64,000 nucleotides of DNA, taken from contig CM000151.3 of the NCBI GenBank assembly GCA_000004695.1, positions 8,000,001 to 8,064,000 on the forward strand, in the 5' to 3' direction. Below the pieces are notes generated by a model. The model worked only from the letters and a program-made list of their open reading frames with translations. It was not told the origin of the DNA and did no database searches. The position numbers and the translations under genes are program-made. The DNA is from Dictyostelium discoideum (Eukaryota). The stretch's first letter is position 1, and each line of letters starts with the position of its first letter. Of the stretch, positions 32,217 to 52,121 are shown one piece after another.

Positions 32217-32765
32217 ATGGTAAGTTTCTCTTTTTTTTATTTTTATTTCTTTATTTTTTTATTATTTATTTCTTTTTTATTTTATTTTCACGCACACACA
32301 CACCTGAAATAAATAAATTAATAATGAAAATTTCTGATAATAAATTATCCCCCCACCATAGTTGTACTTGTTTAATAATAATAAATAAACAATCGATAAA
32401 TCAATTATCATAAAATTTAGTACACCTTAATCTTCCAGAATGATTTTTTTTATTTTTTTGTTTTTTTTTTTTTTTTTTTTTTTCCAAATTTTTATTTTTT
32501 AATTATTTTTTTTTTATTTTTTTTATTTTTTTTTTTTTTATTATTTTATTTTTTTTTTTGTCGCTTAACAGTACTGAAATTTAAAAGGAAATTTTTTTTT
32601 TTTCATTTATTTAATTTTAAACAAAGAGTGGATATTTTCTAAAAAAAATAAAAATAAAAATGGAAATGGTACATATTAAAATTCATTTTGACAAAAAAAG
32701 AAAAAAAATAATACACTCACAAAAAATCAATAAGAGTTTTTTTTTTTTTATTTATTTATTTATTT

Positions 32766-32834
<69 letters not shown>

Positions 32835-33990
32835 AATTATTACTAATATATTTATTAATATATTTATTATTTATTTTAATATTTTATAGGAAGGATTTGA
32901 TCATGTTACATTTTGGGTTGGTAATGCATTACAAGCAGCAACTTATTACATTGCTAGATTTGGATTTCAAAATTTAGCTTATAGTGGTTTAGAAACTGGT
33001 AATCGTCAATTCGCCACTCATGTTATCCATCAAAACAACATTATTATGGCTTTTACATCACCATTAACTGGTGACAACAAAGATTATGCAGACCACATGA
33101 TGAGACATGGTGATGGTGTCAAAGATATTGCTTTCAACGTTAAAGATGTACAACACATTTATGATGAAGCAGTTAAAGCAGGAGCTCAATCAGTTAAAGA
33201 ACCACATCAAATTAAAGACGAACATGGTATTGTTACATTAGCAACTATCATGAGTCCATATGGTGAAACTACACATACTTTTGTTGATAGATCTCAATAT
33301 AAAGGTGCATTCTTACCAGGTTTCACATACAAGGTCGCTTCAGATCCATTATCAAATATCACCGAACCAGTTGGCCTCAACTTAATAGATCATGTCGTTT
33401 CAAATCATGCAGATAAAATGATGGAACCAGTCGTTCAATGGTACGAAAAGGTTTTACAATTCCACCGTTTCTGGTCAGTTGATGACAAAACCATTCATAC
33501 CGAATATTCATCATTAAGATCAGTCGTAGTTGCTGATAAGTCTGAAAAAGTTAAATTACCAATTAATGAACCAGCCAATGGTATTAGAAAGAGTCAAATT
33601 CAAGAATACGTAGATTTCTACAATGGTGCTGGTGTTCAACATATCGCCTTAAAGACTGATAACATCATTGATGCTATCTCAAAATTAAGATCTCGTGGTG
33701 TCTCTTTCCTCACTGTTCCAAAAACATACTATACATCACTCAGAGAGAAATTACAACACTCTTCATTAGAAATTAAAGAAGATTTGGACACTTTAGAGAA
33801 ATTACACATTTTAATCGATTATGATGACAAAGGTTATCTTTTACAAATCTTTACAAATAATGTTGAAGATAAACCAACTGTTTTCTTTGAAATTATCCAA
33901 AGAAACAACCATGATGGTTTCGGTGCTGGTAACTTTAAATCCCTCTTTGAAGCAATCGAAAGACAACAAGAAACTCGTGGAAACTTATAG
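32217..33990 (+). CDS. hpd: 4-hydroxyphenylpyruvate dioxygenase; join(32217..32219,32890..33990)
   Basis: Exon 2 aligns along its full length with 4HPPD: EGFDHVTFWVGNALQAATYYIARFGFQNLAYSGLETGNRQFATHVI ... HGDGVKDIAFNV ... LQFHRFWSVDDKTIHTEYSSLRSVVVA ... QIQEYVDFYNGAGVQHIALKTDNI ... LLQIFT ... IQRNNHDGFGAGNFKSLFEAIE. The in-frame ORF is open upstream to an acceptor tatag at 32888-89. The only upstream ATG in splice context is aaacaATG|gtaagt at 32217, so exon 1 is just ATG (phase 0). The model gives 367 codons, consistent with the family length. Confidence 0.75.
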
Positions 33991-34297
33991 GTGTGTCTCA
34001 ATTACAAATGTTCTTTATTATTAACTAAATAACATTACAATATATCAAAATAAATAATAAATAAATACTCTATTTAAAAAGTAATTTTTTAATAGTAAAC
34101 AAATTAAAAAAAAAAAAAAAAACAAAAAATTATCTCCTTTAAACATTTTAATTTCTTCTTTATTTATAAACAATGTGTTACAAATTATTACAACCCCAAT
34201 TTCAACATATTATTGAATTATAAGTTGGATTGGACACTTTAGAGAAATTACACATTTTAATAAGTTATAATATTTTATTAATTATTTATTTGTTTAT

Positions 34298-35225
34298 TTA
34301 TAATAATTTAATGAAATCAAATGTTTGAACATCGTTAGTATTGGTTACAGATTTGAAAGTGATAACGATATTACCAGATTCAAATGACCATGACCAATGA
34401 GCGTTCAAGTTAGCATCATGTTTAATGACGATTGTATGATTTGTAGTTGCTTCTTGAACTGCTTCTAAGATCATTTCATCAGCACAACGTTTGGCAAGAT
34501 TAGCAGCGACCTTTTCGACGATACCAGCAAAGATATGACCAAAACTATTCTTTAAATCATCTGCAACTTTTGGATAAACAGTTTCTAATGATGATTCATC
34601 AATTGACCAATCTGATGATGATTTTAATGCTTTTTTAACTGCTGATAAATTATCTTTCATTTTTTGTTCATTTGTTTTAATATTTAAACGAGTCATTAAA
34701 GTATAAACACCTTGAGTTGGAATAATAGTCTCTAATTTGAATGTGTTAACATCATTTGTGTTACAAATCTTTGGACGGAATAAAACTCTACAATCACCAT
34801 TCTCAAATTGATATTTCCAATAGGATTCCAACTTTTCATCAGCACAAACAAAAACGAATTTCTTATTTGGAACAGCTGCTAAAAATGCTTCTTTAATTAA
34901 TGGATCTGCACCGACTTTTACCATATTCTTTGCAAGATTACCAACTACATCTTTGTAAAAGATACTTCCACAACTATTAGTAACCCATGAATCATTACAT
35001 TTAGTAATAATATCTTCAAAATCAAATTCAATTGAAAATGGTTCACCTAATGATTTTTCGATTGATGCTAAATTAGTTTTTAAAGATTCTTCATTATCTT
35101 TTAATGATTTTCTATAAATATTATAAATTTAATTATTAATTAATATTTATATTAATTATTAAATGGAATATAATTATTATTATTTTTATTATTTATATTT
35201 ACCTTGAGGTTAAGGCGAGAGGCAT
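34298..35225 (-). CDS. uncharacterised two-domain protein family, copy A (278 aa); join(35225..35203,35111..34298)
   Basis: Exon 1 is ATGCCTCTCGCCTTAACCTCAAG|gtaaat. Exon 2 follows the acceptor tatttatag and begins A AAA TCA TTA AAA GAT... Protein MPLALTSRKSLKDNEESLKTNLASIEKSLGEPFSIEFDFEDIITKCNDSW...TNTNDVQTFDFIKLL. Copy-specific residues DPLIKE, CRVLF, IIPTQG. Confidence 0.8.
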
Positions 35226-35894
35226 TTTAAAAGTTTTTTTTTTATTAATATTGAAATATTATTTAGTTTAAGGTTTTTGTTTTGAATTATTTGGTAATAA
35301 AAAAAAAAAAAAAAAAATATTCACATTTTTATACTTAAAAAATAGAAAAAAATTAGATTAAAAAAATCCAGAAATATTTAAAAATATTAAATAAAAAATA
35401 TAATTATGAATTTTAAGAATGTAATTGGAATAGTTTTTTTTTTTTTTTAAAAAAATATCTTGTTTTTTTGTTTTAAAAAAAAAAAAAATATTTTAATTTG
35501 TATTTTTTTATTTTTTTTTTTTTTTTTTGGATCGGGTATCTTTAAAAAAAAAAAAAATTGATAATAAGATAATTTTTAAATTTTAATTTATTTTGTTACG
35601 AAATGAATTAAATTCATTATATATATAAATGTGTATTTTTTTTTTTTTTATTATTTATTTTAATTATTTGAATATAATGAGTTTAAAATAAACTATGGTT
35701 TGCCATATCGAAGTTTATTAAAAAATAAAAAAAGACTTAAAAAATTAAATTTGAAAAATAATAAAAAATAATAACAATTCCGTCCATTCAATTAAAAAAA
35801 AAAAAAAGATATGAATAGATATAGATAATTTAAAAAACTAAATTAAAATGTGAAATTTTATTTTTAAATGATTAATTTAAATTATTTTCTTTTA

Positions 35895-36000
35895 TCTAGA
35901 AATTGTCCAAAGAAACAATCATGATGGTTTCGGTGGTTGTAACTATAAGTCTCTCTTTGAGAAAATCGAGGAAAGTTATAATAAATTACAATCATGGTCT
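35895..36000 (+). pseudogene. degenerate duplicated fragment of the hpd 3' end (last about 35 codons plus 3' flank continuing to about 36090)
   Basis: 35897-36090 (gaaattgtccaaagaaacaatcatgatggtttcggtggttgtaactataagtctctctttgag...aatactctatttaaaaataattttttaatagtaaac) is a diverged, frameshifted copy of hpd 33890-34090 (gaaattatccaaagaaacaaccatgatggtttcggtgctggtaactttaaatccctctttgaa...aatactctatttaaaaagtaattttttaatagtaaac). Confidence 0.8.
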
Positions 36001-36178
36001 CAATTACAAAAGTTCCTTATTATTGGTTGAATATCAATATAAATTAATACTCTATTTAAAAATAATTTTTTAATAGTAAACTAACAAAAAAAAAATCAAA
36101 AAACAATCACCTTTTTATACTTTTAATTTCTTCTTTATTTTTTAACAATGTGTTTAATAATATTAGTAGCTTTTTTAT

Positions 36179-37106
36179 TTATAATAATTTAATGAAATCA
36201 AATGTTTGAACATCGTTAGTATTGGTTACAGATTTGAAAGTGATAACGATATTACCAGATTCAAATGACCATGACCAATGAGCATTCAAGTTAGCATCAT
36301 GTTTAATTACGATTGTATGATTTGTAGTTGCTTCTTGAACTGCTTCTAAGATCATTTCATCAGCACAACGTTTGGCGAGATTTGCAGCGACCTTTTCGAC
36401 GATACCAGCAAAGATATGACCAAAACTATTCTTTAAGTCGTCAGCAACTTTTGGATAAACAGTTTCTAATGATGATTCATCAATTGACCAATCTGATGAT
36501 GATTTTAATGCTTTTTTAACTGCTGATAAATTATCTTTCATTTTTTGTTCATTTGTTTTAATATTTAAACGAGTCATTAAAGTATAAACACCTTGAGATG
36601 GAATGATTGTTTCTAATTTGAATGTGTTAACATCATTTGTGTTACAAATCTTTGGACGGAATAAAATTCTACAATCACCATTCTCAAATTGATATTTCCA
36701 ATAGGATTCCAACTTTTCATCAGCACAAACAAAAACGAATTTCTTATTTGGAACAGCTGCTAAAAATGCTTCTTTAACTAATGAATCTGCACCGACTTTT
36801 ACCATATTCTTTGCAAGATTACCAACTACATCTTTATAAAAGATACTTCCACAACTATTAGTAACCCATGAATCGTTACATTTAGTAATAATATCTTCAA
36901 AATCAAATTCAATTGAAAATGGTTCACCCAATGATTTTTCGATTGATGCTAAATTAGTTTTTAAAGATTCTTCATTATCTTTTAATGATTTTCTAAAAAT
37001 AAAATAAAATAAATTATTAATTAAAATTTATATTAATTATTAAATGAAGCATTATTATTATTATTTTTATTATTTATATTTACCTTGAGGTTAAGGCGAG
37101 AGGCAT
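36179..37106 (-). CDS. uncharacterised two-domain protein family, copy B; join(37106..37084,36992..36179)
   Basis: Same two-exon structure as copy A (exon 1 is 23 nt, donor gtaaat at 37083, acceptor ttttag at 36994-93). Residues DSLVKE, CRILF, IIPSQG. Confidence 0.8.
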
Positions 37107-37398
37107 TTTAAAAGTTTTTTTTTTATTAATATTAAAATATTATTTATTAGTTTAAGGTTTTTGTTTTGAATTATTTGATAATAAAAAAAAAAAAAAAAAA
37201 ATTTACATTTTTATACTTATGAAATTAGAAAAAAAATAGATTAAAATCCAGAAATATTTAAAAATATCAAAAAAAACAAATAAAATTATTAATTTTAAGA
37301 ATGTAATTGGAATGGTTTTATTTTTTTTTTACACTTATAAATTAGAAAAAAAATAGATTTGAAAATATCTAGATTTTTTTTTTTTTTTTTTTTTTTGG

Positions 37399-37429
<31 letters not shown>

Positions 37430-37542
37430 AATATCTTAATTTGTTTTATTTTTTTTTTTTTTTTTTTTTTTTTTGGGTTGGTGTGCTTTAAAAAAAACAA
37501 AAAATAACAATGAAAAAAATAAACTCTTTTTGGGTTGAGGTG

Positions 37543-37579
<37 letters not shown>

Positions 37580-37640
37580 TGAACAGATAATTTCAAACAC
37601 TAAATTAAAATATGAAATTTTATTTTTTAAATGTTTAATT

Positions 37641-38672
37641 TCAATTATTTCTTTTTTCTAAATTAATTTTAAATTCGTTTGGTTTAAAAGAGAAACCAAA
37701 TATAGGTTTATCACAAATCTTTGAATTTTCAATTAAAGGTAATAGCTTAAAGTTTAAAACAAGGTTTGAAAGTGAAATGTATAATTCATCTTGAGAGAAA
37801 CCCATACCAATACAATTTTTAACACCAATTCCATATGGAAAATAATTATTTGAATGAGAATCTTGATCAAGGAATCTCTCTGGTTTAAATTGGTCAGGTG
37901 AATCCCAATAGTTTTCATCTCTAAATATTGAATAAAGTGATTGAATGATTTGAGTACCTTTTGGAATTTTCAAAGATCCACCATTAATTTCAAATGATTG
38001 ATTTACTTGACGAGGTACACCAAATGGTACAGGTGGATATAATCTCAAAACTTCTTTTAAAGCTGCATTAAATAATGGTGTTTGATTTCTATTTGAAAGT
38101 TTAATCATCGCTGTTGTCGTTTCCAATGTTGATTTTAATTCATTATAAATTTTATCTTGATAATCAAGATTATTTACCATTGTTAAAATGAACCATTCAG
38201 CAGTACTTGAATTTGTTTCTGTGCCAGCTAAAATTAATTCATTTACCATTGGGATGATTGAACTTTGTTCTTCTTTACCACCAACTTTTCTATATTCAAT
38301 AATCAATGAATCCAAAACATCTCTTGCATTATTTAAATCAATTGATTCAGAATGTTCTAAATAATATTTTGTTAAAATCTTTTTCAAAGAATCTGCTGGA
38401 TGACCAAACATTTTTAAATATAAAAAATAGAATGGTTTTGTAAATATTAAATAATTTACAATTAATGTATCTGCTAAATAATCAAATAATTCTCTAATTG
38501 CTAATAAAACTTTTCCTTGTTCTTCATTTACACCTTCATAAATATTTTCAATACGTCTTGAAAATACATAATCAAAAATAATATTTGAATAAAAGTTCAT
38601 AAAATTTGATCTTGGTGAAAACTTTTAAAAAAAAAAAAAAAAAAAATTAATAAACCAAGTAATGTTTTTAAC

Positions 38673-38727
<55 letters not shown>

Positions 38728-39242
38728 GTACTACTTACAGATTGACCAGATTTTTCAATAAATTTCATATATGTAATTAAATCAATTGTTTCTTTTTCTA
38801 TTGAAGATGAAAGTGATTTAACTTTTCTACCAGTAAATGATTTCATTAAAATATCACGATGAAATTGCCAATAATTTTCATCGGCAGTGACAATACCTCT
38901 AAATCTATTTCCTATTACATTTGTTGATGGTGATTTAACTCTTGTATTTAATGATTCTGGATTCTTTAAATAAATTTCTTTCATTGTATTTGTATCATAA
39001 ATTGCCAATGTCAATTGATCACAAAACCAATATTTGATTATTTTACCATTGTTATCACCATCTTTATATAGTTTACTATCATTTTGAAATACTAAATGTG
39101 TATCATCTTTTAAATGTAATAATGAACCTACTAATGGTAATGCCAAGGGTCCTTTAAATTGTCTATTACTAAAATTTTTATATAAAAAATCAAAAATTAA
39201 ATAAAAAATTATTGAAATTATTAAAATAATTAAAATTGACAT
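37641..39242 (-). CDS. cytochrome P450 monooxygenase; join(39242..38739,38621..37641)
   Basis: N-terminal membrane anchor MSILIILIISIIFYLIFDF. Heme-binding signature FPYGIGVKNCIGMGFSQDE near the C-terminus. PERF-like KPERFLD. Donor GQS|gtaagt at 38738, acceptor ttttttaaaag at 38623-22. Exon 2 begins FSPRSNFMNFYS. About 494 aa. Confidence 0.8.
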
Positions 39243-39643
39243 TTTAATATGCTTTGGTATCTTATAAAAAATAAAAAAATAAAAAATAAAAAAAAAAAAC
39301 AAAAAAAAAAAAAAAAAAAAAGGTGAAAGAAAAAAAAAAAAAAATATCTAAACTACTGTAAAAAAAAAAAATAAAAAAAAAATAAAAATAAAATAAATCT
39401 TTTTTTGGTTAAAAAACTAATTTTAAACATTGTTATAAATCTAAAATTTTCCATATGGTAAATAAAAAAAAAAAAATAATAATAATTCAAAAAACAAATA
39501 TAAATTATAAAAGATTATAAAATTCTTAAAAATTAAAAATGTTTTTTTTTTTTTTTTTTTTTATTATTATATTATTATTTAAATAAATAGATATATTACA
39601 AATTTTTATTTTTTATATATTATTAATTAATTAATTAATTAAT

Positions 39644-42189
39644 TTATCTAATTAATTCAATTAAAGAATTTTGTTGAAATTTACCAAAATTTCTAGCATA
39701 ATTATCTAATTCTCTAATCAATAATGGTGAATTAATTCTAATTTTTTTTAAAGTTTCATTTTTTGTATTTAAAATTTTAAATAAATCGAAATCGATTTGA
39801 CTAATAGTATCCATACAAATTCTTTTTAATCTTTTAACCATGAAACCATCGGCAACTTGCATTAGAATACAAATATTATCAAATGAAGTTAAAGTTTCTT
39901 CAAAATTTAAAATATCTTCTTTCTTTAATTTTTGTTGATTTCCATCGATGTTATTTGTTGTTTTTGGAACATTTTTTAATAAAATTTCATTATTTGATAA
40001 AACCATTTGTTCCAAATGATATTCACAAAGATATTTTAAATCTTCAATCATGAATCTATCAGCCAAACAAAGTATATCTATAGCATTATCATCATTGATA
40101 ATCTCTTCATTATTACCATAGATATATTGAAGTAATAGTTTGAAAGTTTCTTTGGAAGAGATATCATTTTCATCTTTACCACTTACAATGAATTCCATTT
40201 GATCCTTCTCTTTGAATGAACATTCAAACATTGTTTTAAAATAAAGATTTCTTTGAGTTAAAATGAATTTATGAGCGTAAATTGAAGAGGTATCAGATTC
40301 TTTGATTTTGAATGAAATATCAGCTTTGGTTAATTCATCAACTGCTTGAATTAATTGTTTACTAAATTCTGAAGGTGGTATTTTCTCGGTGAGTCTTAAT
40401 CTATAGGTATAACGTTTACAAATGGCTGATAATCTTTCAATTCCCATCTTTTCAGCATATTTACCCAATTCAATTCTTAAATGTGGTGCAATCACTAAAT
40501 GATCAGTATATAAATATTGTAAAAAACCAATGAAAATTTGATATTTAACTGAATTGCCTAAATCAATAATTTTAATTTCTTCACCATTTTCATTAAATTC
40601 TTTTTCTTCTTCTTTTTCTTCTTCTTTTTCTTCCTTAGCCACAACAACTTGTTTATTATTTGAATATTGATTAATAAATCTTGATGAAAATAAAATTATT
40701 GAATATAATTTTTGGCAACGTGATTTTATAAATAATGAATGAGAATAAATTTTCTTATCTTGAACTTTAAATATTAAATCTGCATACTTCTTTTCATTAA
40801 TTAATGATTTATAATCATAAGCAAATGAAGTTACATCGGAACATCTTACAACGATTGTATGTTTTTCACCGGCTGTGATCGATGCAATTTCTTCACCAGA
40901 TAGAGAAGTGATTAATTGTGGTACCAATTGAAATCTTTTATTACCTAAACCCAATGCACCAGAACTACCCCAACCCCATTGATAAACTTCATTCTCATCA
41001 GTTACAACGATTGTATGTAAATGACCACATGCTACATTTTTAATTTTTTTAGTTTCTAATGATTTAACCACTATTGGTATTGAATATTTGAAATGATTAT
41101 CTCTTCCACCGAAATCCAAATGTTGAGTTTCTTCTGTGCTACCCAATTGACCATATTCTCCATGACCAAATGCATACAATAGACCTTGGACGCTTCTAAC
41201 CATAGTGAAATTGGAACCACATGCAACTTGAGCTATTCTTTCATTTAATTCTACAAACTGTTGAATTTTCTTTGGATGAAGGTAACTCTTTACATTACCA
41301 TGACCCAATTGACCGAAAACACCAAGTCCCCAACTATAAACTTCACCTTGATCGGTGATGGCACAAATATGTTGACGACCACATACAACACTAACAATGT
41401 TCACATCGATTAATGTTTTCACCAATTGTGGTGTAGAATGAAACCAACGATTACCTAAACCCAATTGACCCTTTTCATTGAATCCCCATGTATATAAACG
41501 ACCAGATTTAGTAACGGCTGCACTAAATGCCCAACCACCACTCACATCTACCACTTCCTCTGGTATATCTTGAATTTGCATTGGAATGGTTTGATTTAAA
41601 TCAATGATTTTACCCAAATGCTTACTCTTTGATTGTGCACTATTGGATGCTTCCTTATCTTCATCATCATCCTTTGGTTTTGTACCACCATTGGCATCGT
41701 ATGCCTTCTTTTCACCCGATAGATATTGTGAAACTGATGCCTCTATAATTCTTTGAGATGATAATCTTGGCATTTCAATTAAACCATTGGTTGATTGTAT
41801 ATCCAATGATGATTGTGACTCGTCTAATCGATGTAGTTGACCCCATTCATAAACTTTACCCATATCAGTCAATGCTAAACTATGAAAATTACCACATGCT
41901 ACCTTTATAATTCTTTCATGTTGTAAACTTTTAATCAATGTTGGTTTTGCTACAAACATTACTTTATCACTACCACCATACCCTTGACCAATACCTAATT
42001 GACCTTCTTTTGATCTACCCCATGAATAAACATCTCCAAATCTTGATACAGCCAATGAATGTGCTTCACCTGATACTGTTTGTATAATTCTTTTACCTAA
42101 TAATCCTTCAATAACTGTTGGTTCTAAACATTCTTTAATTGAATCATGTCCTAACTGCCCATTTTTTGATTGTCCAACACTTAAAACTA

Positions 42190-42225
<36 letters not shown>

Positions 42226-42304
42226 ATGATTAATATAATTTATGTTGAACATTCAGAAAATAGTAAAAATAAAAAAAATAAAAATAAAAAAACTTACCTG
42301 ACAT
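39644..42304 (-). CDS. RCC1-repeat + tandem BTB/POZ domain protein (RCBTB-like); join(42304..42298,42186..39644)
   Basis: The track ORF starts at a TTG. The reading frame continues upstream (SVGQSKNGQLGHDSIKECLEPTVIEGLLGKRIIQTVSGEAHSLAVSRFGDVYSWGRSKEGQLGIG...) to the acceptor ttattag at 42188-87. The only matching start is the 7-nt exon ATGTCAG|gtaagt at 42304..42298 (phase 1), which gives MSVLSVGQS... The N-terminal 450 aa carry repeated RCC1 blades (YSWG/YTWG/YEWG...GQLG). The C-terminal half has two BTB-like segments (ADLIFKVQDKKIYSHSLFIKSRCQKL...; SSIYAHKFILTQRNLYFKTMFECSFKE...). Confidence 0.75.
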
Positions 42305-43017
42305 TTTATTATTTTTATTTTAATATTATATTTATATTTATGTTTATATGTTTTTTATTTGTTTTGATAATTTTTAATAAATTTTTTTTTTTTTTTTTTT
42401 TTAACTTTATTTTTTTTTTTTGTAAAATTAAATTTAAAAAAATAAAATAAATTAAAAATTAAATTTTAGAATTCTATAGAAAGAATTTTTCCTTTTATAG
42501 TAAGTTTTTGTTTTTTTTATTTTTGTTGTTTTTATAAAAAAAAAAAGGTTTTTGTTTTATTATTATTTTTGTTTTTTTATTTTTATTTTTGTTTTTTTTT
42601 ATTATAAAAGAAAAATGGATTTGAAAATAAATATTTTAAAAAAATTAAAATTAATTTTATGAAAAAAAAAAAATATTGAGTATGAGTGAATTAATAATCA
42701 ATAATGAAAATAAAAAAAAAAAAAAAAACTAATTCGTCTTTCTTTTTAAATTAAAAAAAAAAAAATAAAAACCAATTATTTATTATTTTTTATTTTTATC
42801 TTTTTTTTATTATTTTTTTTATATCAAGTAAATTAAATTATTATACCAAGTAAATAAAATAATACCCCAATAAAATGATAAAGTTCTTCTCAATTTCAAA
42901 GAATGTACCTGTTTTTTATTGATAAAATTTGAAAAATTAAAAAAAAAAAAAATAAAATTAGAAAAAAAATATTTTTTTTAATTTTATTTTCATTTTTTTT
43001 TATTTAATTTTTTTTTT

Positions 43018-43058
<41 letters not shown>

Positions 43059-43661
43059 TAATTTTTCAAAAATTGAGATATTTATTTCGCATATGTTTTA
43101 GTAAAAATAAGCCAAAATTAGTTTTTGGGTTTTGTTGGCATTTGTTTGTTTTTTGAGTATTAATTACATTTTTTAGTTTGAATATTTTTTTATTATTATT
43201 ATTATTTTTATTTGTTATTTATTATTATTGTTATTATTATTATTTTTTTTTTTTTTTGAGTTTTTCATTTTTGTGTTGCAAAACACAAATAAAAAAACAT
43301 GTCACACACCCATTCAGTTTATAATAAAAAAAAAAAAAAAAAAAAAGAAAAAAAAAGAAAATAAAAAAAAGTGGGATTTTCATTTTTTTTTTTTTTTTTT
43401 TTTCAATCATTTATTTTTATTTTTGTCATCAACATATTAATATATAATTATTTTTAAATCTCGTTTTAATAATTCCCCACTTTTTTTGTTTTTTTTTTTT
43501 TTTGCATAATTAATTTTAATTTTTATTTTTTTTTTCTGTACATATAATTTATTAAAAAAAATAAAAATAAAAAATAAAAAATAAAAATATAAAATAAAAA
43601 AAAAAAAAAAAAAAAAAATAAAATAATATAAAATAAAAAAAAAAAAAAAAAAAAAAAAAAA

Positions 43662-45683
43662 ATGAAAGATATTTGGAAATCAGCAAGAAAAGGTGATTTA
43701 GCAAAGATTAAAAAGTATATACCAGGCACAAAATTTAAAGTTGATGAATTAGATAAAGAGAATAGATCAATTCTTCATCATGCGATTGATGGTGACCAAT
43801 TACAAATGGTAAATTATTTATTAGAACAAGGTGCAAATATAAATTTAAAAGATCCTAAATCTGGTGATACTGTATGTATTTAATAATTATAAATAAATAA
43901 AATATATTATTATTATTTTTTTTTTTTTCTAATAGAAAAACATATGTTAATTATTAATTATTATTTTTTATTTATAATTTAGCCAATTTTAATGTCATTA
44001 AAAAAAATTAATGCAATTGATAAACAAGAAGATATTGCAATTTTATTAGTTAATAAAGGTGCAGATTTAGATGTTGAATCAAGAGAGAGAAAGAATGTTG
44101 AAAGATATGTTGATGCATGTCCAAAACGTTTTCAAATAAAGTATAAAGATGCAATTACACAAAAGTTTAAAAATAAATATCCACCAAAGGCAATTGCACC
44201 AGCAAGTCCAGCTACTCAAGTTCTTTTAGCGCAAACTGCAGGTTTACCACCACCTTCACCAAAACCAAATCCACCACCACCACAACAGCAAGAAAACACT
44301 GCTACATCATCAATTATATCAACTGTCGAACCAAGACCATATGTAAATTCAAATGGTGAAACAGTTGTAAGATCAACTAATGAAATGGATTTAATTTTAC
44401 AAGAATCATTGTTAGGTGATGATTTTGATAAAGAACAAGATTTGAATATAATTTGGATGGAAGTTGCATTTAGAGCATCAATCGTTTCCATTAGGTCTGA
44501 GAAAGTTAGATATGACGATATCACCAAAGCCACCGATCAATGTGGTAATATTTTAATACATTTGCTATCAATCATTGGTAATTCAGAGACAACATCGTTC
44601 ATGGAGACTGTAAAGAATCAAGAAGCTGTAAACTCAATTCAAGAACGTGTTAAAAACGTTAAGGAGGGTATCAAACTCCGACTGTTCTCTAGAATTGATC
44701 ATTCTGAATTAATTAGATTAGTTGCAGCTTTAATTGGTTCATTACATTGGATTTACAATTGCTGGTCAGAGGTCCCACAAGACGATATCAATAGATCAAT
44801 TGCCGAATGTGCCTTGTCATGTCGTGTTGCAATGAATTCAGTTACAACTCATACACCATTCCAGTTGGGTGTTTTAACAAATATTGCAAAACTTTTAAAA
44901 AATATTTCAACTAAAGTTTTCATTACTCGTACTCCAGAGGATGCAAAGAAGTTATCAGATTCTTGTTTTGTTATCTCTTCAACTTTTAAATCATTAATGG
45001 TTCTATCGGTAGTGAATGATGTCAAACAAAAATCAGCTGAAAATATCATCTCATTAGGTCGTTCAATCGCCGAACAATTATCAATATTAAAATTACAATC
45101 AACTTCAATCTTACCTTCAAGAGTTGGTCAAAATTTATCATCAAAAGAAGAACGTGAGTTAAATGAATCTGCTTCAAATCAATTACGTTCATCAATTGAT
45201 TATTATATTTCAAATAATAAATCTGATACAACTACTACTACTACAACTACAACTACAACTACAAATAGTGAGAATAATAATATTACAGATTTAATTTCAT
45301 CACCAAAAAGATTACCAAAAGAAGATAAAACATTACCATTATTAGCAAATATTGAAAAATCAATTTCAATGTTAATGGGATTTACAACTGAAGATAGAAA
45401 TATTCAAATGGCAATTCCAGTTCATATGATTGCAAAGGATATTCATGAACTTAGAACTATATTATTAGAATACATTAAAGAACAATCTGATAGTTTATCT
45501 GAAGAATTTAAAGATCAAATTACAAATGCTATCAATTGTTCTGCTCATTTTTCAACTCAACAATTATTCTCTGTATCTGCTTTAATTTGTCATAATAGAA
45601 TTACTGATATCTCACAATTAGGTTATTCTTCTCGTAATATTGCTGCTTGTTGTTGTATTTTAATTGATTCATTCTGTTTTTAA
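43662..45683 (+). CDS. ankyrin-repeat protein with large C-terminal domain of unknown function; join(43662..43871,43983..45683)
   Basis: Exon 1 reads MKDIWKSARKGDLAKIKKYIPGTKFKVDELDKENRSILHHAIDGDQLQMVNYLLEQGANINLKDPKSGDT, then gtatgt at 43872. The acceptor aatttag at 43981-82 leads into PILMSLKKINAIDKQEDIAILLVNKGADLD, an ankyrin GDTP...A...G consensus that spans the junction. About 636 aa. Contains T11 and a Pro-rich linker. Confidence 0.7.
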
Positions 45684-45818
45684 AAAATAAATAAATAATA
45701 AATAAATAATAAATAAATAATAAATAAATAAATAAATAAAATTTGTAAAATAAAATATTAATTTATAATAAAATAAATCAATTTATTTTTTCCCTGAAAG
45801 TAAAATAAAATTAATTAA

Positions 45819-45843
45819 TTAATCTCGAAAATGAATTTTTAAG

Positions 45844-45896
<53 letters not shown>

Positions 45897-47222
45897 GAAA
45901 TTATTAAAATTATTAATATTAAAATTATTCTTTAAATTTTTTGATAGTGATAAAAATGTTAATGAAATTGGTAATTTAATTTTTAATAAATTTTCAATTG
46001 AATAATTATTATTTAATATTAAATGAGTTAATGTTGATGGTAATATATTATCTTGATCAAATGGTTGATTAAAATTTATATTTTCTAAAAGGTTAAATAT
46101 TTTTAAACCATTTGGTAATATGTTTGTATCAATTTTTGAATTGAAATAACCAATGATTGAAAATTCAATTAAACTTGTTAAACATTGTAATAATGAACCA
46201 ATATAATAATTTAAATTTAAATTTAATCTTTTACATGTGAATTCAATCAAGTCAAATGCAATTTCAAATTTTTTAATTGAATTACTTGGTGATAGTATAG
46301 ATGGAGTTAATGGTATTTGTAAATCATAAATTTGTAAATTCTCAACTGTTGATGGTATTGAATTTGGTAGAAATTTCATATCTTTTGAATAACATTCTAA
46401 ATTTATTAATGATGGTGGTAGTGATTCATGAGTAATTTCTAATTTATTAGTATTATTATTTTCATTTTCATTTTCATTAATATAATACATCATAGTTAAT
46501 GATTTTACATTTATTGGTATAACATTTTTAACAAGTTTATTACATTTTAAAATCACTTCTAAATTAATTATTGAATTTGGTAATACTGAAATATCAAAAC
46601 CTTCTCTGTAACTATTTAATACTAAATTTTTAATACCATTTGGTATATCACCAATTTTTAAAATTGAATCACCATTATTCCACTCATTTATAAATGTTAT
46701 TGATTCTAATGTACTTGGAAATTTAATTGTATCTTTTGAAATTTTTGGACATTTTAAAAATGTTATTTCTTTAATATTATTTGGAATTAAATAATCATTA
46801 CCTTTACTATAATCAGTTTCATTAATTACAACATTTTTAACTGACTTAATTGTTGATGGTAATAGGAAAAGAGGAGTTGTGGAAACGAGTATGTTATTAT
46901 TAAATGTTAAACTAATTCCAAATTCAATTATTTCAACTCCAAATGGTATTAAACAACTTGCAATATTTGAAATTGATTGTTCTTTAAATACTATTTTATT
47001 TAATACACCATTTTTATTATTTGGTAAAAAACACTTTTCATTTATTGATTCATTACCTTTATATATTAATGTTCTAATATATTCCTTATTTTCATATTCA
47101 ATTAATGATGTTAAATTTAAAAATGTTACAATTTCATTTTTTTCATATAATAATTTAAACTCTAAAATCATTTTTAACAAATAAACATTTCTCCAAACCT
47201 TAAAAAATAATTTATCTTTCAT
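45819..47222 (-). CDS. FNIP-repeat (Dictyostelium-type leucine-rich repeat) protein, 467 aa
   Basis: Continuous ORF. Repeated approximately 22-residue units of the form LP.(S/N/G)I(K/E).L.(F/L)... (IPNNIKEITFLKCP, LPNSIINLEVIL, LPNSIPSTVENLQIY, LPNGLKIFNLLENINFNQPF). Coordinates are taken from the ORF track because of the ±1 local inconsistency noted in this stretch. Confidence 0.7.
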
Positions 47223-47663: not shown

Positions 47664-48590
47664 ATGCCTCTCGCTTTAACTTCAAGGTAAAAAAAAAAAA
47701 AAAAAAAAAATTATAATTCATTTAGTGGTTAATAATTTAAAATTACTAATTTAAATTAAATTTATTTAATTTATAGAAAATCATTAAAAGATAATGAAGA
47801 ATCTTTAAAAACTAATTTAGCATCAATTGAAAAATCATTGGGTGAACCATTTTCAATTGAATTTGATTTTGAAGATATTATTACTAAATGTAATGATTCA
47901 TGGGTTACTAATAGTTGTGGAAGTATCTTTTATAAAGATGTAGTTGGTAATCTTGCAAAGAATATGGTAAAAGTCGGTGCAGATTCATTAATTAAAGAAG
48001 CATTTTTAGCAGCTGTTCCAAATAAGAAATTTGTTTTTGTTTGTGCTGATGAAAAGTTGGAATCCTATTGGAAATATCAATTTGAGAATGGTGATTGTAG
48101 AATTTTATTCCGTCCAAAGATTTGTAACACTAATGATGTTAACACATTCAAATTAGAGACAATCATTCCATCTCAAGGTGTTTATACTTTAATGACTCGT
48201 TTAAATATTAAAACAAATGAACAAAAAATGAAAGATAATTTATCAGCAGTTAAAAAAGCATTAAAATCATCATCAGATTGGTCAATTGATGAATTATCAT
48301 TAGAAACTGTTTATCCAAAAGTTGCCGACGACTTAAAGAATAGCTTTGGTCATATCTTTGCTGGTATCGTCGAAAAGGTCGCTGCAAATCTCGCCAAACG
48401 TTGTGCTGATGAAATGATCTTAGAAGCAGTTCAAGAAGCAACTACAAATCATACAATCGTTATTAAACATGATGCTAACTTGAACGCTCATTGGTCATGG
48501 TCATTTGAATCTGGTAATATCGTTATCACTTTCAAATCTGTAACCAATACTAACGATGTTCAAACATTTGATTTCATTAAATTATTATAA
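47664..48590 (+). CDS. uncharacterised two-domain protein family, copy C; join(47664..47686,47777..48590)
   Basis: Exon 1 ATGCCTCTCGCTTTAACTTCAAG|gtaaaa has synonymous changes relative to the other copies. Acceptor ttatag at 47775-76. Residues DSLIKE, IIPSQG, IDELSLE. Confidence 0.8.
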
Positions 48591-49270
48591 ATAAATAAAA
48601 AAAGCTATTAATATTATTAAACACATTGTTAAGAAATAAAAAAGAAATTAAAAAGTATTAAAAGGTGATTGTTTGTTGATTTTTTATTTGTTTATTTATT
48701 GTTTATCATTTAAAAATTAATTTAGTGTTTTAAATTATCAATTTCTATTCATATCTTTTTTTTTTTTCTCATTTAACTGAATGGATGGAATTGTTATTAT
48801 TTTTCAAATTTATTTTTTAAAGTCTTTTTTTATTTTTAATAAACTTCGATATGTTAAACTATTTTTTATTTTAAACCGTTTAATACAAATAATTATAATA
48901 AATAATTGAAATATATAACAAAATAAATTAAAATTAAAGATTAAATTCTATTGTCAATTTTTTAAAAAGAGTGTATAATAATAAAAAAAATAGTATAGAT
49001 AAAATATTAAGTAGATATGTGATTATCTATTTTTTTTTTTTTTTCATTTGGAAATTTAGACAATTCAAACACTATGTTATTCATACATCAAAAATTAAGA
49101 TATTATTTTAGTTTTATTTTTTATTTTTTTTTATTTTTTATTTTTTTTAACGATACCCCTATAAAAAAAAAAAAAAAATAAAAAAAAAAAAAATAAGATA
49201 TTTTTAAAAAAAAAAAAAAAATAAAAAAAAACAAGTCCAGATATTTTTTTTTAAAAAAAAAAAAAAAAAA

Positions 49271-49388
49271 TCATTCCAATTACATTCTTGAAATTAATAA
49301 TTTTATTTTTTATCTAATATTTTTAAATATTTCTGGATTTTTAATCTATTTTTTTTCTATTTTTATAAGTATAAAAATGTAAATATTT
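49271..49388 (+). promoter_or_regulatory. conserved promoter module shared by the five-copy family, representative copy D; equivalents at 47481..47600 (C), 50995..51110 (E), 35322..35432 (A, minus strand) and 37204..37317 (B, minus strand)
   Basis: Near-identical blocks lie 80-200 bp upstream of each ATG: TCATTCCAATTACATTCTT(G/A)AAA(T/A)TAATAATTTTATTTT, then ...TTTAAATATTTCTGGATTTTTAATCTATTTTTTTTCTATTTTTATAAGTATAAAA(A)TG(T/G)AAAT. Conservation is far above the surrounding poly-A/T spacer. Confidence 0.5.
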
Positions 49389-49468
49389 TTTTTTTTATTA
49401 TTATCAAATAATTCAAAACAAAAACCTTAAACTAATAATATTTAAATATTAATAAAAAAACATTTAAA

Positions 49469-49496
49469 ATGCCTCTCGCCTTAACCTCAAGGTAAG

Positions 49497-49527
<31 letters not shown>

Positions 49528-50399
49528 GCTTCATTTAATAATTAATATAAATTTTAATTAATAATTTAATTTATTTTATTTTTAGAAAATCATTAAAAGA
49601 TAATGAAGAATCTTTAAAAACTAATTTAGCATCAATTGAAAAATCATTGGGTGAACCATTTTCAATTGAATTTGATTTTGAAGATATTATTACTAAATGT
49701 AACGATTCATGGGTTACTAATAGTTGTGGAAGTATCTTTTATAAAGATGTAGTTGGTAATCTTGCAAAGAATATGGTAAAAGTCGGTGCAGATTCATTAA
49801 TTAAAGAAGCATTTTTAGCAGCTGTTCCAAATAAGAAATTCGTTTTTGTTTGTGCTGATGAAAAGTTGGAATCCTATTGGAAATATCAATTTGAGAATGG
49901 TGATTGTAGAATTTTATTCCGTCCAAAGATTTGTAACACAAATGATGTTAACACATTCAAATTAGAAACAATCATTCCATCTCAAGGTGTTTATACTTTA
50001 ATGACTCGTTTAAATATTAAAACAAATGAACAAAAAATGAAAGATAATTTATCAGCAGTTAAAAAAGCATTAAAATCATCATCAGATTGGTCAATTGATG
50101 AATCATCATTAGAAACTGTTTATCCAAAAGTTGCTGACGACTTAAAGAATAGTTTTGGTCATATCTTTGCTGGTATCGTCGAAAAGGTCGCTGCAAATCT
50201 CGCCAAACGTTGTGCTGATGAAATGATCTTAGAAGCAGTTCAAGAAGCAACTACAAATCATACAATCGTAATTAAACATGATGCTAACTTGAATGCTCAT
50301 TGGTCATGGTCATTTGAATCTGGTAATATCGTTATCACTTTCAAATCTGTAACCAATACTAACGATGTTCAAACATTTGATTTCATTAAATTATTATAA
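49469..50399 (+). CDS. uncharacterised two-domain protein family, copy D; join(49469..49491,49586..50399)
   Basis: Exon 1 is 23 nt then gtaaga. Acceptor tttag at 49584-85. Residues DSLIKE, IIPSQG, IDESSLE. Confidence 0.8.
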
Positions 50400-51192
50400 A
50401 TAAACAAAAAAAGCTATTAATAATTAAAACACATTGTTAAAAAATAAAGAATAAATTAAGTATAAAAAGGTGATTGTTTGTTGATTTTTTTTTATTTGTT
50501 TTTTATTGTTCAAAGTCTTTTTTTTTAATAATAATCGATATGTTAAACTATTTTTTATTTTAAACTCCTTTAAATACAAATAATAAAAATAAATAATTTT
50601 ATCCAAAAAAAAAAAAGAAAAAAAAATGAATTATAATTCATTGTGTAACAAAATAAATTAAAATTAAAAATAATATCTTATTATTATATTTTAAAAAAGA
50701 GTGTATAATAGATAAAAAACTAAAAAAAGTATTGATAAAATATTAAGTAGATTATCTTTTTTTTTTTTTTTTTTTTTTTCTTTTTGAAATTAAGATAATT
50801 CAAACACTATTTATTCATTACATCAAGTATTATAAAGAATTAAAAGATATCATTATATTTTTCTTTTTTTTTTTTTTTAACGATACCCCTATCCAAAAAA
50901 AAATAAAAAATAAAAAAAAAAAAACAAAAAAAAATAAAAAATAAAAAAAAAATAATATAAAAACCAAAATCCAGATATTTTTTATAAAAAAAAATCATTC
51001 CAATTACATTCTTAAAATTAATTATTTTATTTGTTATTTAATATTTTTAAATATTTCTGGATTTTTAATCTATTTTTTTTCTATTTTTATAAGTATAAAA
51101 TGGAAATTTTTTTTTTTTTAATTATCAAATAATTCAAAACAAAACAAACTAATAAATAATATTTTAATAATAATAAAAAAAAAACTCTTAAA

Positions 51193-52121
51193 ATGCCTCT
51201 CGCCTTAACCTCAAGGTAAAAATAAATAATAAAAATAAAAATAATAATAATATTTCATATAAAAATTAATAAAAATTTATTAATAAATAAATTTATTTTA
51301 TTTTTAGAAAATCATTAAAAGATAATGAAGAATCTTTAAAAACTAATTTAGCATCAATCGAAAAATCATTGGGTGAACCATTTTCAATTGAATTTGATTT
51401 TGAAGATATTATTACTAAATGTAACGATTCATGGGTTACTAATAGTTGTGGAAGTATCTTTTACAAAGATGTAGTTGGTAATCTTGCAAAGAATATGGTA
51501 AAAGTCGGTGCAGATCCATTAATTAAAGAAGCATTTTTAGCAGCTGTTCCAAATAAGAAATTTGTTTTTGTTTGTGCTGACGAAAAGTTGGAATCCTATT
51601 GGAAATATCAATTTGAGAATGGTGATTGTAGAATTTTATTCCGTCCAAAGATTTGTAACACAAATGATGTTAACACATTCAAATTAGAAACAATCATTCC
51701 AACTCAAGGTGTTTATACTTTAATGACTCGTTTAAATATTAAAACAAACGAACAAAAAATGAAAGATAATTTATCAGCAGTTAAAAAAGCATTAAAATCA
51801 TCATCAGATTGGTCAATTGATGAATCATCATTAGAAACTGTTTATCCAAAAGTTGCAGATGATTTAAAGAATAGTTTTGGTCATATCTTTGCTGGTATCG
51901 TCGAAAAGGTAGCTGCTAATCTCGCCAAACGTTGTGCTGATGAAATGATCTTAGAAGCAGTTCAAGAAGCAACTACAAATCATACAATCGTCATTAAACA
52001 TGATGCTAACTTGAACGCTCATTGGTCATGGTCATTTGAATCTGGTAATATCGTTATCACTTTCAAATCTGTAACCAATACTAACGATGTTCAAACATTT
52101 GATTTCATTAAATTATTATAA
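51193..52121 (+). CDS. uncharacterised two-domain protein family, copy E; join(51193..51215,51308..52121)
   Basis: Exon 1 is 23 nt then gtaaaa. Acceptor tttttag at 51306-07. Residues DPLIKE, IIPTQG, which match copy A. Confidence 0.8.

What the first reader, a model, noticed from the sequence alone, without database searches (positions are those of the whole stretch)
34224..36090. hpd-derived filler DNA at the duplication junctions: a 200-bp degenerate hpd 3' end plus a separate 32-bp hpd fragment
Between copies A and B, 35895-36090 is a diverged copy of the last exon end and 3' flank of hpd (33890-34090). It encodes [24 protein letters not shown]... where authentic hpd encodes [24 protein letters not shown], and it is frameshifted. 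Just 3' of copy A, 34231-34262 (ttggacactttagagaaattacacattttaat) repeats hpd 33784-33815 exactly, and this piece is absent from the equivalent flank of copy B. The tandem unit was therefore originally the hpd tail plus a family gene. The proximal junction has been further remodelled, which fits microhomology-mediated repair.
Basis: seen in the sequence. Interest (0 to 1): 0.6.

Follow-up and report, generated by a model that had tools for sequence, protein, structure and literature searches.

The report
Old duplication scar plus recent patch
Two stray pieces of the hpd gene in Dictyostelium discoideum chromosome 2 are real, but ordinary: one is the decayed scar of an old tandem duplication, and the other is a recent 32-base repair patch copied from hpd 446 bases away.

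Summary
The window is D. discoideum AX4 chromosome 2. It reads hpd(+), family copies A and B(-), a P450(-), and further on copies C, D and E(+).

Both observations are real. Coordinates need small shifts: the exact 32-mer is 33784-33815 = 34230-34261, and the hpd relic starts at 35899.

The roughly 200-bp relic is not filler DNA.
- It runs in the same order as the hpd tail, the hpd 3' flank, the family 3'UTR and the family gene.
- At 35898|35899 it directly abuts a copy of the P450 gene's last codons and 3' flank.
- The A-B junction is therefore the scar of one head-to-tail duplication of about 1.8-2.0 kb, with breakpoints inside both neighbouring genes.
- A further-decayed version of the scar exists in one D. 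cf. discoideum assembly. Most other junctions have lost it.

The 32-mer is a separate and much younger event.
- It occurs only in AX4 and in a near-identical independent assembly, probably AX2.
- It replaces about 15 bp found at the same site in four other strains.
- Its right edge ends in a TTTAAT microhomology and its left edge carries a doubled TTGGA.

Both are known kinds of event. Interest is low to moderate.

The parts
32217..33990 (+). hpd (4-hydroxyphenylpyruvate dioxygenase, Q76NV5). Exon 1 is the ATG at 32217-32219, the intron is 32220-32889, and exon 2 is 32890-33990 including the stop.
   Evidence: The spliced translation (367 aa) is an exact match to D. discoideum AX4 hpd. Pfam finds Glyoxalase/HPPD domains.
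33784..33815 (+). Donor of the 32-bp patch, inside hpd exon 2. It encodes ..LDTLEKLHILI..
   Evidence: Exact 32-mer. It is conserved in hpd of every strain examined: 0 mismatches in L002 and L003, and 97% identity in L004 and 91% in L005 and L006. hpd is therefore the source.
33889..34099 (+). Parent of the relic: hpd codons 335-367, the stop codon, and the hpd 3' flank.
   Evidence: Alignment to 35899-36075.
34100..34297 (-). 3' flank/UTR of family copy A ('A-type'). It is conserved at the hpd-proximal copy in all strains of the discoideum clade.
   Evidence: The stretch 34100-34191 aligns to B's 36076-36166 with 26% substitutions.
34227..34261 (+). Lineage-specific hpd-derived patch: GGA + TTGGACACTTTAGAGAAATTACACAT + TTTAAT. 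It replaces about 15 bp (TATAACAATTTAAAA in L002). The right edge, TTTAAT at 34256-34261, is shared by donor and recipient. The left edge carries a TTGGA|TTGGA doubling.
   Evidence: Present only in AX4 and L007. The orthologous flanks of L002, L003, L004 and L008 lack it.
34298..35225 (-). Family copy A. It is DDB_G0277417 as inferred from accession order. 278 aa, with the intron at 35112-35202.
35794..35898 (-). Relic of the P450 3' flank plus its last codons. The coding relic is about 35878-35898 (P450 ...LEKRNN*). It ends at the founding junction.
   Evidence: Matches 37562-37660 at 85% over 106 columns. One search gives 90% over 49. Alignment; translations.
35899..36075 (+). hpd relic: coding-derived about 35899-35975, then the decayed hpd 3' flank to about 36075. 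Non-functional, with replacement changes, deletions and no upstream exon.
   Evidence: Of the 11 differences, 6 fall at codon positions 1 and 2 (read directly from the sequences).
36076..36178 (-). 3'UTR of copy B ('B-type'), shared with copies C and D.
36179..37106 (-). Family copy B. It is DDB_G0277415 as inferred from accession order. 278 aa, with the intron at 36993-37083.
37562..37660 (-). Parent of the P450 relic: the P450 3' flank and last codons. The P450 stop codon is at 37641-37643.
47664..52121 (+). Distal inverted array: copy C 47664-48590, copy D 49469-50399, copy E 51193-52121. The C-D and D-E junctions lack the hpd relic ('short type').

Best explanation
There are two unrelated mutational events of known kinds.

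Event 1 is old. In an ancestor whose gene order was hpd(+), a single family gene(-), P450(-), a segment of about 1.8-2.0 kb was duplicated head to tail. Its left breakpoint fell in hpd codon 335 and its right breakpoint about 5 codons before the P450 stop.
- The new junction (35898|35899) therefore joins a P450 3'-end relic to an hpd 3'-end relic. Both relics are non-functional and have decayed since.
- The join was illegitimate. At most a few bases of AT-rich microhomology (AAATT) are visible, so it was not homologous unequal crossing-over (inference).
- Later amplification, an inverted copy of the array, unequal crossing-over and gene conversion spread 'B-type' units.
- In most junctions, about 200 bp between the near-repeats TTTTTAAATGAT and TTTTTTAATAGT were deleted, which removed the relics.

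Event 2 is recent and confined to the lineage of the NC4-derived lab strains. A break or stalled fork arose in the AT-rich spacer 37-71 bp downstream of copy A's stop codon.
- It was repaired by copying about 29-32 nt from hpd exon 2, 446 bp upstream and in the same orientation.
- The copy re-joined at a TTTAAT microhomology, with an abortive first priming that left the doubled TTGGA.
- About 15 bp of the original sequence were lost.
- This is a templated insertion of the kind made by polymerase-theta-type or synthesis-dependent microhomology-mediated end joining. The enzyme is inferred, not shown.
For: Shown for event 1:
- The relic is collinear with its parent: hpd tail, hpd flank, family UTR, family gene.
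- It directly abuts the P450-tail relic.
- The relic shows no selective constraint: 6 of its 11 differences lie at codon positions 1 and 2, and it carries deletions.
- D. cf. discoideum L004 has the same P450-flank|hpd-relic junction, further deleted. It shares 5 derived substitutions with the AX4 relic in 124 columns; my own estimate of the chance expectation is about 0.5.
- Two D. citrinum assemblies have a single family copy next to the P450 in the AX4 orientation.
- All non-proximal copies share the B-type UTR, while every hpd-proximal copy has the A-type.
- The short junctions equal the long junction minus the interval between two near-identical 12-mers.

Shown for event 2:
- The 32-mer is exact, with 0 of 100 shuffles matching.
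- It is present in the independent assembly L007.
- It is absent from the orthologous site in L002, L003, L004 and L008, where a different 15-16 bp sit between the same flanking sequences AAGTT and TTTAAT.
- The donor sequence is conserved as coding sequence in all strains.
Against: - The relic is missing from the CR116C/OT3A-type D. discoideum assemblies and from L008, so at least one loss, and probably more than one, must be assumed.
- The relics of AX4 and L004 differ by about 25%, more than orthologous non-coding DNA of these two genomes (5-11%). In L004 the relic lies between copies 2 and 3, not 1 and 2. They may descend from paralogous copies of the founding junction rather than being strict orthologues.
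- D. citrinum has an unrelated FNIP-repeat gene between hpd and the family gene, so direct hpd-family adjacency in the ancestor is inferred, not observed.
- The founding junction has diverged too far to read its microhomology reliably.
- For the patch, the left edge is not a clean microhomology join, and no repair enzyme has been tested in Dictyostelium.
Confidence: 0.85

Rival explanations
1. The roughly 200-bp hpd piece is true filler: a fragment captured or copied into a pre-existing A-B junction during repair.
For: Most junctions in AX4 and in other strains lack it, so the short junction could in principle be the original state.
Against: - The piece continues without a break into the hpd 3' flank and then into the family UTR and gene, in the parental order and orientation.
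- Its other side is a P450 coding relic, exactly as expected at a head-to-tail join.
- The short junction is explained by one deletion between two near-identical 12-mers.
- The relic is as diverged as the oldest non-coding parts of the units, 15-26%.
Confidence: 0.03
2. The long junction (with the relic) and the short junction arose from two independent duplications with nearly the same end points.
For: The short junction ends just outside both genes, which could be a second, cleaner duplication of the same gene.
Against: - It needs two events with breakpoints within about 25 bp (P450 side) and about 200 bp (hpd side) of each other.
- Long- and short-junction units share the derived B-type UTR, distinct from the A-type.
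- L004 shows an intermediate, partly deleted relic, so decay by deletion is seen directly.
Confidence: 0.08
3. The 32-bp patch is a short-tract ectopic gene conversion (homology-driven copying) rather than an end-joining templated insertion.
For: - Donor and recipient lie in cis, in the same orientation and 446 bp apart.
- The inferred ancestral recipient AAGTTTATAACAATTTAAAATTTAAT has patchy similarity to the donor AAGATTTGGACACTTTAGAG...TTTAAT.
- One of two extra substitutions just right of the patch matches the donor (read from the sequences).
Against: - There is no extended homology on either side.
- Length changed by a net 14 bp gain.
- The left edge has a TTGGA doubling that conversion does not predict.
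Confidence: 0.15
4. The repeats are chance AT-rich similarity or an assembly error in the AX4 reference.
For: The genome is about 22% G+C, and the self-comparison is full of low-complexity matches.
Against: - 0 of 100 shuffles matched.
- E = 1e-43 for the relic.
- Both features were reproduced in an independent long-read assembly.
Confidence: 0.01
5. The patch is functional. Because copy A is transcribed from the minus strand, its 3'UTR would carry 32 nt perfectly antisense to hpd mRNA and could couple the two genes through RNA interference.
For: - The patch lies 37-68 nt downstream of A's stop codon, in antisense orientation to A's transcript.
- Dictyostelium has RNAi machinery (general knowledge).
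Against: - Three AATAAA signals lie between the stop codon and the patch, so the mRNA may end before it.
- The patch is restricted to one lineage.
- There are no expression or small-RNA data.
- A neutral repair scar explains everything seen.
Confidence: 0.03

Closest known systems
Truncated gene fragments at tandem segmental-duplication breakpoints (partial-gene or 'junction' pseudogenes)
   Same: It is a head-to-tail duplicate whose boundary cuts neighbouring genes. The fragment is collinear with its parent, lacks a 5' part, and decays without constraint.
   Different: - Both neighbouring genes (hpd and the P450) left 3'-end relics fused at one point, so both breakpoints can be read to the base.
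- The relic has survived in only a minority of array junctions.
Templated insertions ('filler DNA') at double-strand-break repair junctions, as described for polymerase-theta-mediated or synthesis-dependent microhomology-mediated end joining in plants, Drosophila, C. elegans and mammals (e.g. PMC5466332, PMC7165422, PMC9097270)
   Same: This applies to the 32-bp patch only:
- it is short;
- it is identical to a template a few hundred bp away in cis;
- original bases were lost;
- there is microhomology at one edge and a stuttered re-priming (TTGGA TTGGA) at the other.
   Different: - It is seen here as a natural variant in Dictyostelium, not at an induced break.
- The polymerase is unknown. D. 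discoideum has only Pol-domain PolQ-like genes of untested function (PMC7515707).
- The roughly 200-bp relic does not belong to this class.
Concerted evolution and structural turnover of tandem or inverted gene arrays, e.g. the tgrBC hotspot of Dictyostelium (PMC12745789)
   Same: The locus shows copy-number change, inversion between inverted arrays, and recombination or gene conversion among paralogues within a genome.
   Different: - This is a different, uncharacterised 278-aa dictyostelid-specific family.
- Here the coding sequences are kept nearly identical rather than diversified.

Membership tests
Tandem-duplication junction relic (partial-gene pseudogene) | The fragment and its flank are collinear with the parent gene end and with the next gene of the unit, in the same orientation. 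| tested here: met
   33889-34190 aligns with 35899-36165 and the alignment continues into copies A and B.
Tandem-duplication junction relic (partial-gene pseudogene) | The fragment's outer edge abuts sequence from the far end of the duplicated unit (a head-to-tail join). | tested here: met
   35794-35898 is a copy of 37562-37660, which is the P450 3' flank plus its last codons.
Tandem-duplication junction relic (partial-gene pseudogene) | The fragment is truncated and free of coding constraint. | tested here: met
   Only 33 codons' worth is present. There are replacement changes at 6 of the 11 differing sites, then deletions and loss of frame.
Tandem-duplication junction relic (partial-gene pseudogene) | An outgroup carries the unduplicated arrangement. 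| tested here: inconclusive
   D. citrinum (two assemblies) has one family copy next to the P450, but an unrelated FNIP-repeat gene separates it from hpd.
Templated insertion / filler DNA at a repair junction | A short insert identical to a nearby template in cis. | tested here: met
   For the 32-mer: an exact copy 446 bp away in the same orientation. For the roughly 200-bp relic this feature is not met, because it is part of the duplicated unit.
Templated insertion / filler DNA at a repair junction | It is a derived state: orthologous sites lack the insert and carry other bases that were lost. | tested here: met
   L002, L003, L004 and L008 have 15-16 different bp between the same flanks.
Templated insertion / filler DNA at a repair junction | Microhomology between template and recipient at the insert edges. 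| tested here: inconclusive
   The right edge, TTTAAT, is shared by donor and recipient. The left edge shows only TT, plus a TTGGA doubling.
Templated insertion / filler DNA at a repair junction | Dependence on polymerase theta or alternative end joining. | not testable with these tools
   Needs genetics. Only PolQ-like Pol-domain genes are reported in D. discoideum (PMC7515707).
Processed (retro-copied) pseudogene | A copy of the mRNA only, with a poly(A) tail, target-site duplication and no flanking genomic DNA. | tested here: not met
   The relic continues through the intergenic flank into the neighbouring gene.
Functional 4-hydroxyphenylpyruvate dioxygenase | A full two-domain HPPD/glyoxalase fold. 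| tested here: not met
   The relic covers only the last 24 recognisable residues. The intact gene at 32217-33990 does match.

The most novel reading that the evidence does not exclude
The 32-nt patch places a perfect antisense copy of an hpd coding segment in the 3'UTR of the convergent family gene A. In the NC4/AX2/AX4 lineage, A's transcript (or read-through from hpd) could then trigger RNAi-type cross-regulation of tyrosine catabolism. This would be a newly born trans-antisense regulator created by a repair accident.
Probability: 0.03. Interest if true: 0.5.

Novelty: new member of a known kind. Interest (0 to 1): 0.22.

Why it matters
- The A-B junction preserves both breakpoints of the duplication that founded a gene array now varying from 1 to 4 proximal copies. 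It gives a clock that gene conversion has not reset, unlike the coding copies. It also shows that the array began as an illegitimate, non-homologous join.
- The 32-bp patch is a clean natural example of templated-insertion repair in a social amoeba. This pathway has not been characterised there, and the patch is a convenient lineage marker for NC4-derived lab strains.
- Neither feature changes what is known about how genomes evolve.

Tried and rejected
- Pfam on the family protein gave no hit. Homologues occur only in dictyostelids and all are 'hypothetical'.
- A literature search for the six DDB_G identifiers found nothing.
- tRNA, Rfam and tandem-repeat scans around the region found nothing relevant.
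- P0001 (DDB_G0271254) turned out to be a paralogue at an unrelated locus.
- I searched for the relic in the distal array of the inverted-type strain (L009) and in L002, L003, L008, L005 and L006. It was absent.
- BLAST suggested that the hpd similarity extends about 36 bp left of the 32-mer (68 bp at 84% against L003's hpd). I rejected this because that stretch, ATTATTGAATTATAAGTT, is ancestral flank present in L002 and L003 without the patch.
- I tried to read microhomology at the founding junction. P450 ...TCTA|AATTA against hpd ...TTTG|AAATTA gives anything from 0 to about 5 bp depending on later substitutions, so it is unresolved.
- Dating is rough. The relic differs from its parent by 15-20%. 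hpd third positions differ by 8% between AX4 and D. cf. discoideum, and by 19% between AX4 and D. citrinum. The relic seems to evolve faster than the constrained comparators, so only 'older than the AX4 / D. cf. discoideum split' is firm.

Full report
**Identity of the window.** The sequence is about 22% G+C. The spliced hpd product (ATG at 32217-32219, intron, exon 32890-33990) is an exact match to D. discoideum AX4 4-hydroxyphenylpyruvate dioxygenase, Q76NV5. The neighbouring 278-aa proteins are exact matches to DDB_G0277415, 417, 421 and 423 on the 8.48-Mb chromosome 2.

The layout is:
- hpd (+);
- family copy A (-, 34298-35225);
- copy B (-, 36179-37106);
- a cytochrome P450 (-, stop codon at 37641);
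- an RCC1/BTB gene (-);
- an Ank-gene orthologue (+);
- a FNIP-repeat gene (-);
- copies C, D and E (+, 47664-52121).

The family has no Pfam domain and occurs only in dictyostelids.

**Check of the observation.** The 32-mer TTGGACACTTTAGAGAAATTACACATTTTAAT occurs at 33784-33815 and at 34230-34261 and nowhere else. No shuffle out of 100 gave a match.

The hpd-like stretch aligns as 35899-36165 against 33889-34190, 72% over 303 columns, E = 1e-43. Its first 72 bp are ungapped with 11 mismatches. Both features recur in an independent long-read assembly that is 99.4-99.6% identical to the window (L007, GCA_054883475.1), so they are not assembly errors. From the strain list of PMC12745789, L007 is probably AX2-214; that assignment is my inference.

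**What the roughly 200-bp piece is.** The alignment does not stop at the end of the hpd-derived part. It runs on through the hpd 3' flank into the family gene's 3'UTR and into the gene, in parental order and orientation.

On its other side, 35794-35898 is a copy of 37562-37660 (85%). That parent interval is the 3' flank and last codons of the P450 gene...LEKRNN* in the P450, decayed at the junction. So at 35898|35899 a P450 3'-end relic is fused directly to an hpd 3'-end relic, with nothing in between.

This is the signature of one head-to-tail duplication of the segment running from hpd codon 335 to about 5 codons before the P450 stop. Today's units are 33889-35898 (2010 bp) and 35899-37660 (1762 bp). 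'Filler DNA' is therefore the wrong label. The piece is the truncated left end of the duplicated unit.

The relic carries replacement changes at 6 of its 11 differing sites and then deletions, so it is not under coding constraint. The microhomology at the join cannot be read with confidence after 15% divergence. At most AAATT is shared.

**Comparative evidence.** I retrieved the orthologous locus from nine assemblies of the PMC12745789 set.

- One D. cf. discoideum genome (L004) has three proximal copies. Between copies 2 and 3 it has the same P450-flank|hpd-relic junction, further deleted. It shares 5 derived substitutions with the AX4 relic in 124 comparable columns, against 12 and 16 private ones. 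I estimate about 0.5 shared changes would be expected by chance. The junction therefore predates the split of these lineages.
- hpd third-position divergence is 8% for that split, 4-5% to the other D. discoideum strains and 19% to D. citrinum.
- Two D. citrinum genomes have a single family copy next to the P450 in the AX4 orientation. An unrelated FNIP-repeat gene sits between it and hpd.
- Every hpd-proximal copy has an 'A-type' 3' flank. Nearly all other copies, in all strains, share a 'B-type' UTR (exceptions: the terminal copies AX4 E and L009_16398, and L004 copy 2). Most of their junctions are a 'short type' that equals the AX4 A-B junction minus the interval between the near-repeats TTTTTAAATGAT and TTTTTTAATAGT.

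The simplest history is one founding duplication, then amplification of the B-type unit, then loss of the relics by deletion in most junctions. The relic is absent from L002, L003/L009 and L008, which requires loss during array turnover.

One caveat applies. The AX4 and L004 relics differ more (about 25%) than orthologous non-coding DNA of these genomes (5-11%). They may therefore descend from paralogous copies of the founding junction.

**What the 32-bp piece is.** Most of the roughly 90 bp that A's flank has and B's lacks is simply the ancestral A-type flank, present in L002, L003, L004 and L008.

What is unique to AX4 and L007 is GGATTGGACACTTTAGAGAAATTACACAT. It sits between AAGTT and TTTAAT, where the other strains have about 15 bp such as TATAACAATTTAAAA.

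- The donor is coding sequence conserved in every strain, so the direction of copying is hpd to flank.
- Identity is 32/32, so the event is recent.
- The right edge, TTTAAT, is common to donor and recipient.
- The left edge reads TTGGA|TTGGAC, as if priming on the template happened twice.
- Two further substitutions lie within 8 bp to the right of the patch.

This matches templated insertion during microhomology-mediated break repair or template switching. The enzyme is unknown. D. discoideum has PolQ-like polymerase-domain genes whose function has not been explored (PMC7515707). A short-tract ectopic conversion is a weaker alternative.

The event has nothing to do with the duplication, and the hpd-A boundary is not a duplication junction.

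**Dating caveat.** The coding copies cannot be used as a clock.
- Third-position differences among the five AX4 copies are 0.4-5.8%, while introns, upstream regions and UTRs differ by 4-50%.
- Exon 2 differs by 2-20 of 814 sites between paralogues within a genome. It differs by 28-43 sites between the hpd-proximal copies of different genomes.

The coding regions are being homogenised by gene conversion.

**Verdict.** Both are new examples of well-known kinds of mutation.

Noticed in passing
window 37641-47222; L002/L010, L003/L009, L008 versus L004, L007, L005, L011: The block P450, RCC1/BTB, Ank, FNIP lies between inverted arrays of the family gene. It is inverted in three assemblies of the discoideum clade relative to AX4, the probable AX2 assembly, one D. 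cf. discoideum and both D. citrinum. Both orientations occur in D. discoideum and in D. cf. discoideum, so the inversion looks recurrent and mediated by the inverted repeats.
   Followed up: partly
window 34298-37106 and 47664-52121; L002-L009: The family shows concerted evolution. The five AX4 proteins are at least 98% identical. Exon 2 differs less between paralogues within a genome (2-20 of 814 sites) than between positional orthologues (28-43 of 814), while introns and flanks are 10-28% apart. Proximal copy number varies from 1 to 4 among strains.
   Followed up: partly
window 48591-49468 (C-D) and 50400-51192 (D-E); L002, L003, L009 junctions: Most inter-copy junctions are a 'short type' that looks like the A-B junction after a deletion of about 200 bp between TTTTTAAATGAT and TTTTTTAATAGT. 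D-E has a further deletion. One L009 junction has a local tandem doubling of the GATATGAATAG...AAATAATAAAC motif.
   Followed up: partly
L005 11884-13239; L011 12000-13871: D. citrinum carries a FNIP-repeat gene between hpd and its single family copy. This gene has no counterpart in the AX4 window: only 27% identity to the AX4 FNIP protein and no nucleotide match.
   Followed up: partly
window 34262-34297 (minus strand): Three AATAAA signals lie within about 30 nt downstream of copy A's stop codon, just before the hpd-derived patch. It is therefore unclear whether the patch is transcribed as part of A's 3'UTR.
   Followed up: no
window 37470-37577: There is a 57-bp unit repeated 1.9 times (TTTTTGGGTTGAGGTGCTTTAAAA...) in the upstream region of copy B, flanked by long A and T runs. 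It is absent from the corresponding part of copy A's upstream region.
   Followed up: no
window 32217-32889: The first exon of hpd is the ATG alone, followed by a 670-bp intron full of long T runs. A second public model of the protein is 369 aa instead of 367 aa, so the 5' end is annotated in two ways.
   Followed up: no
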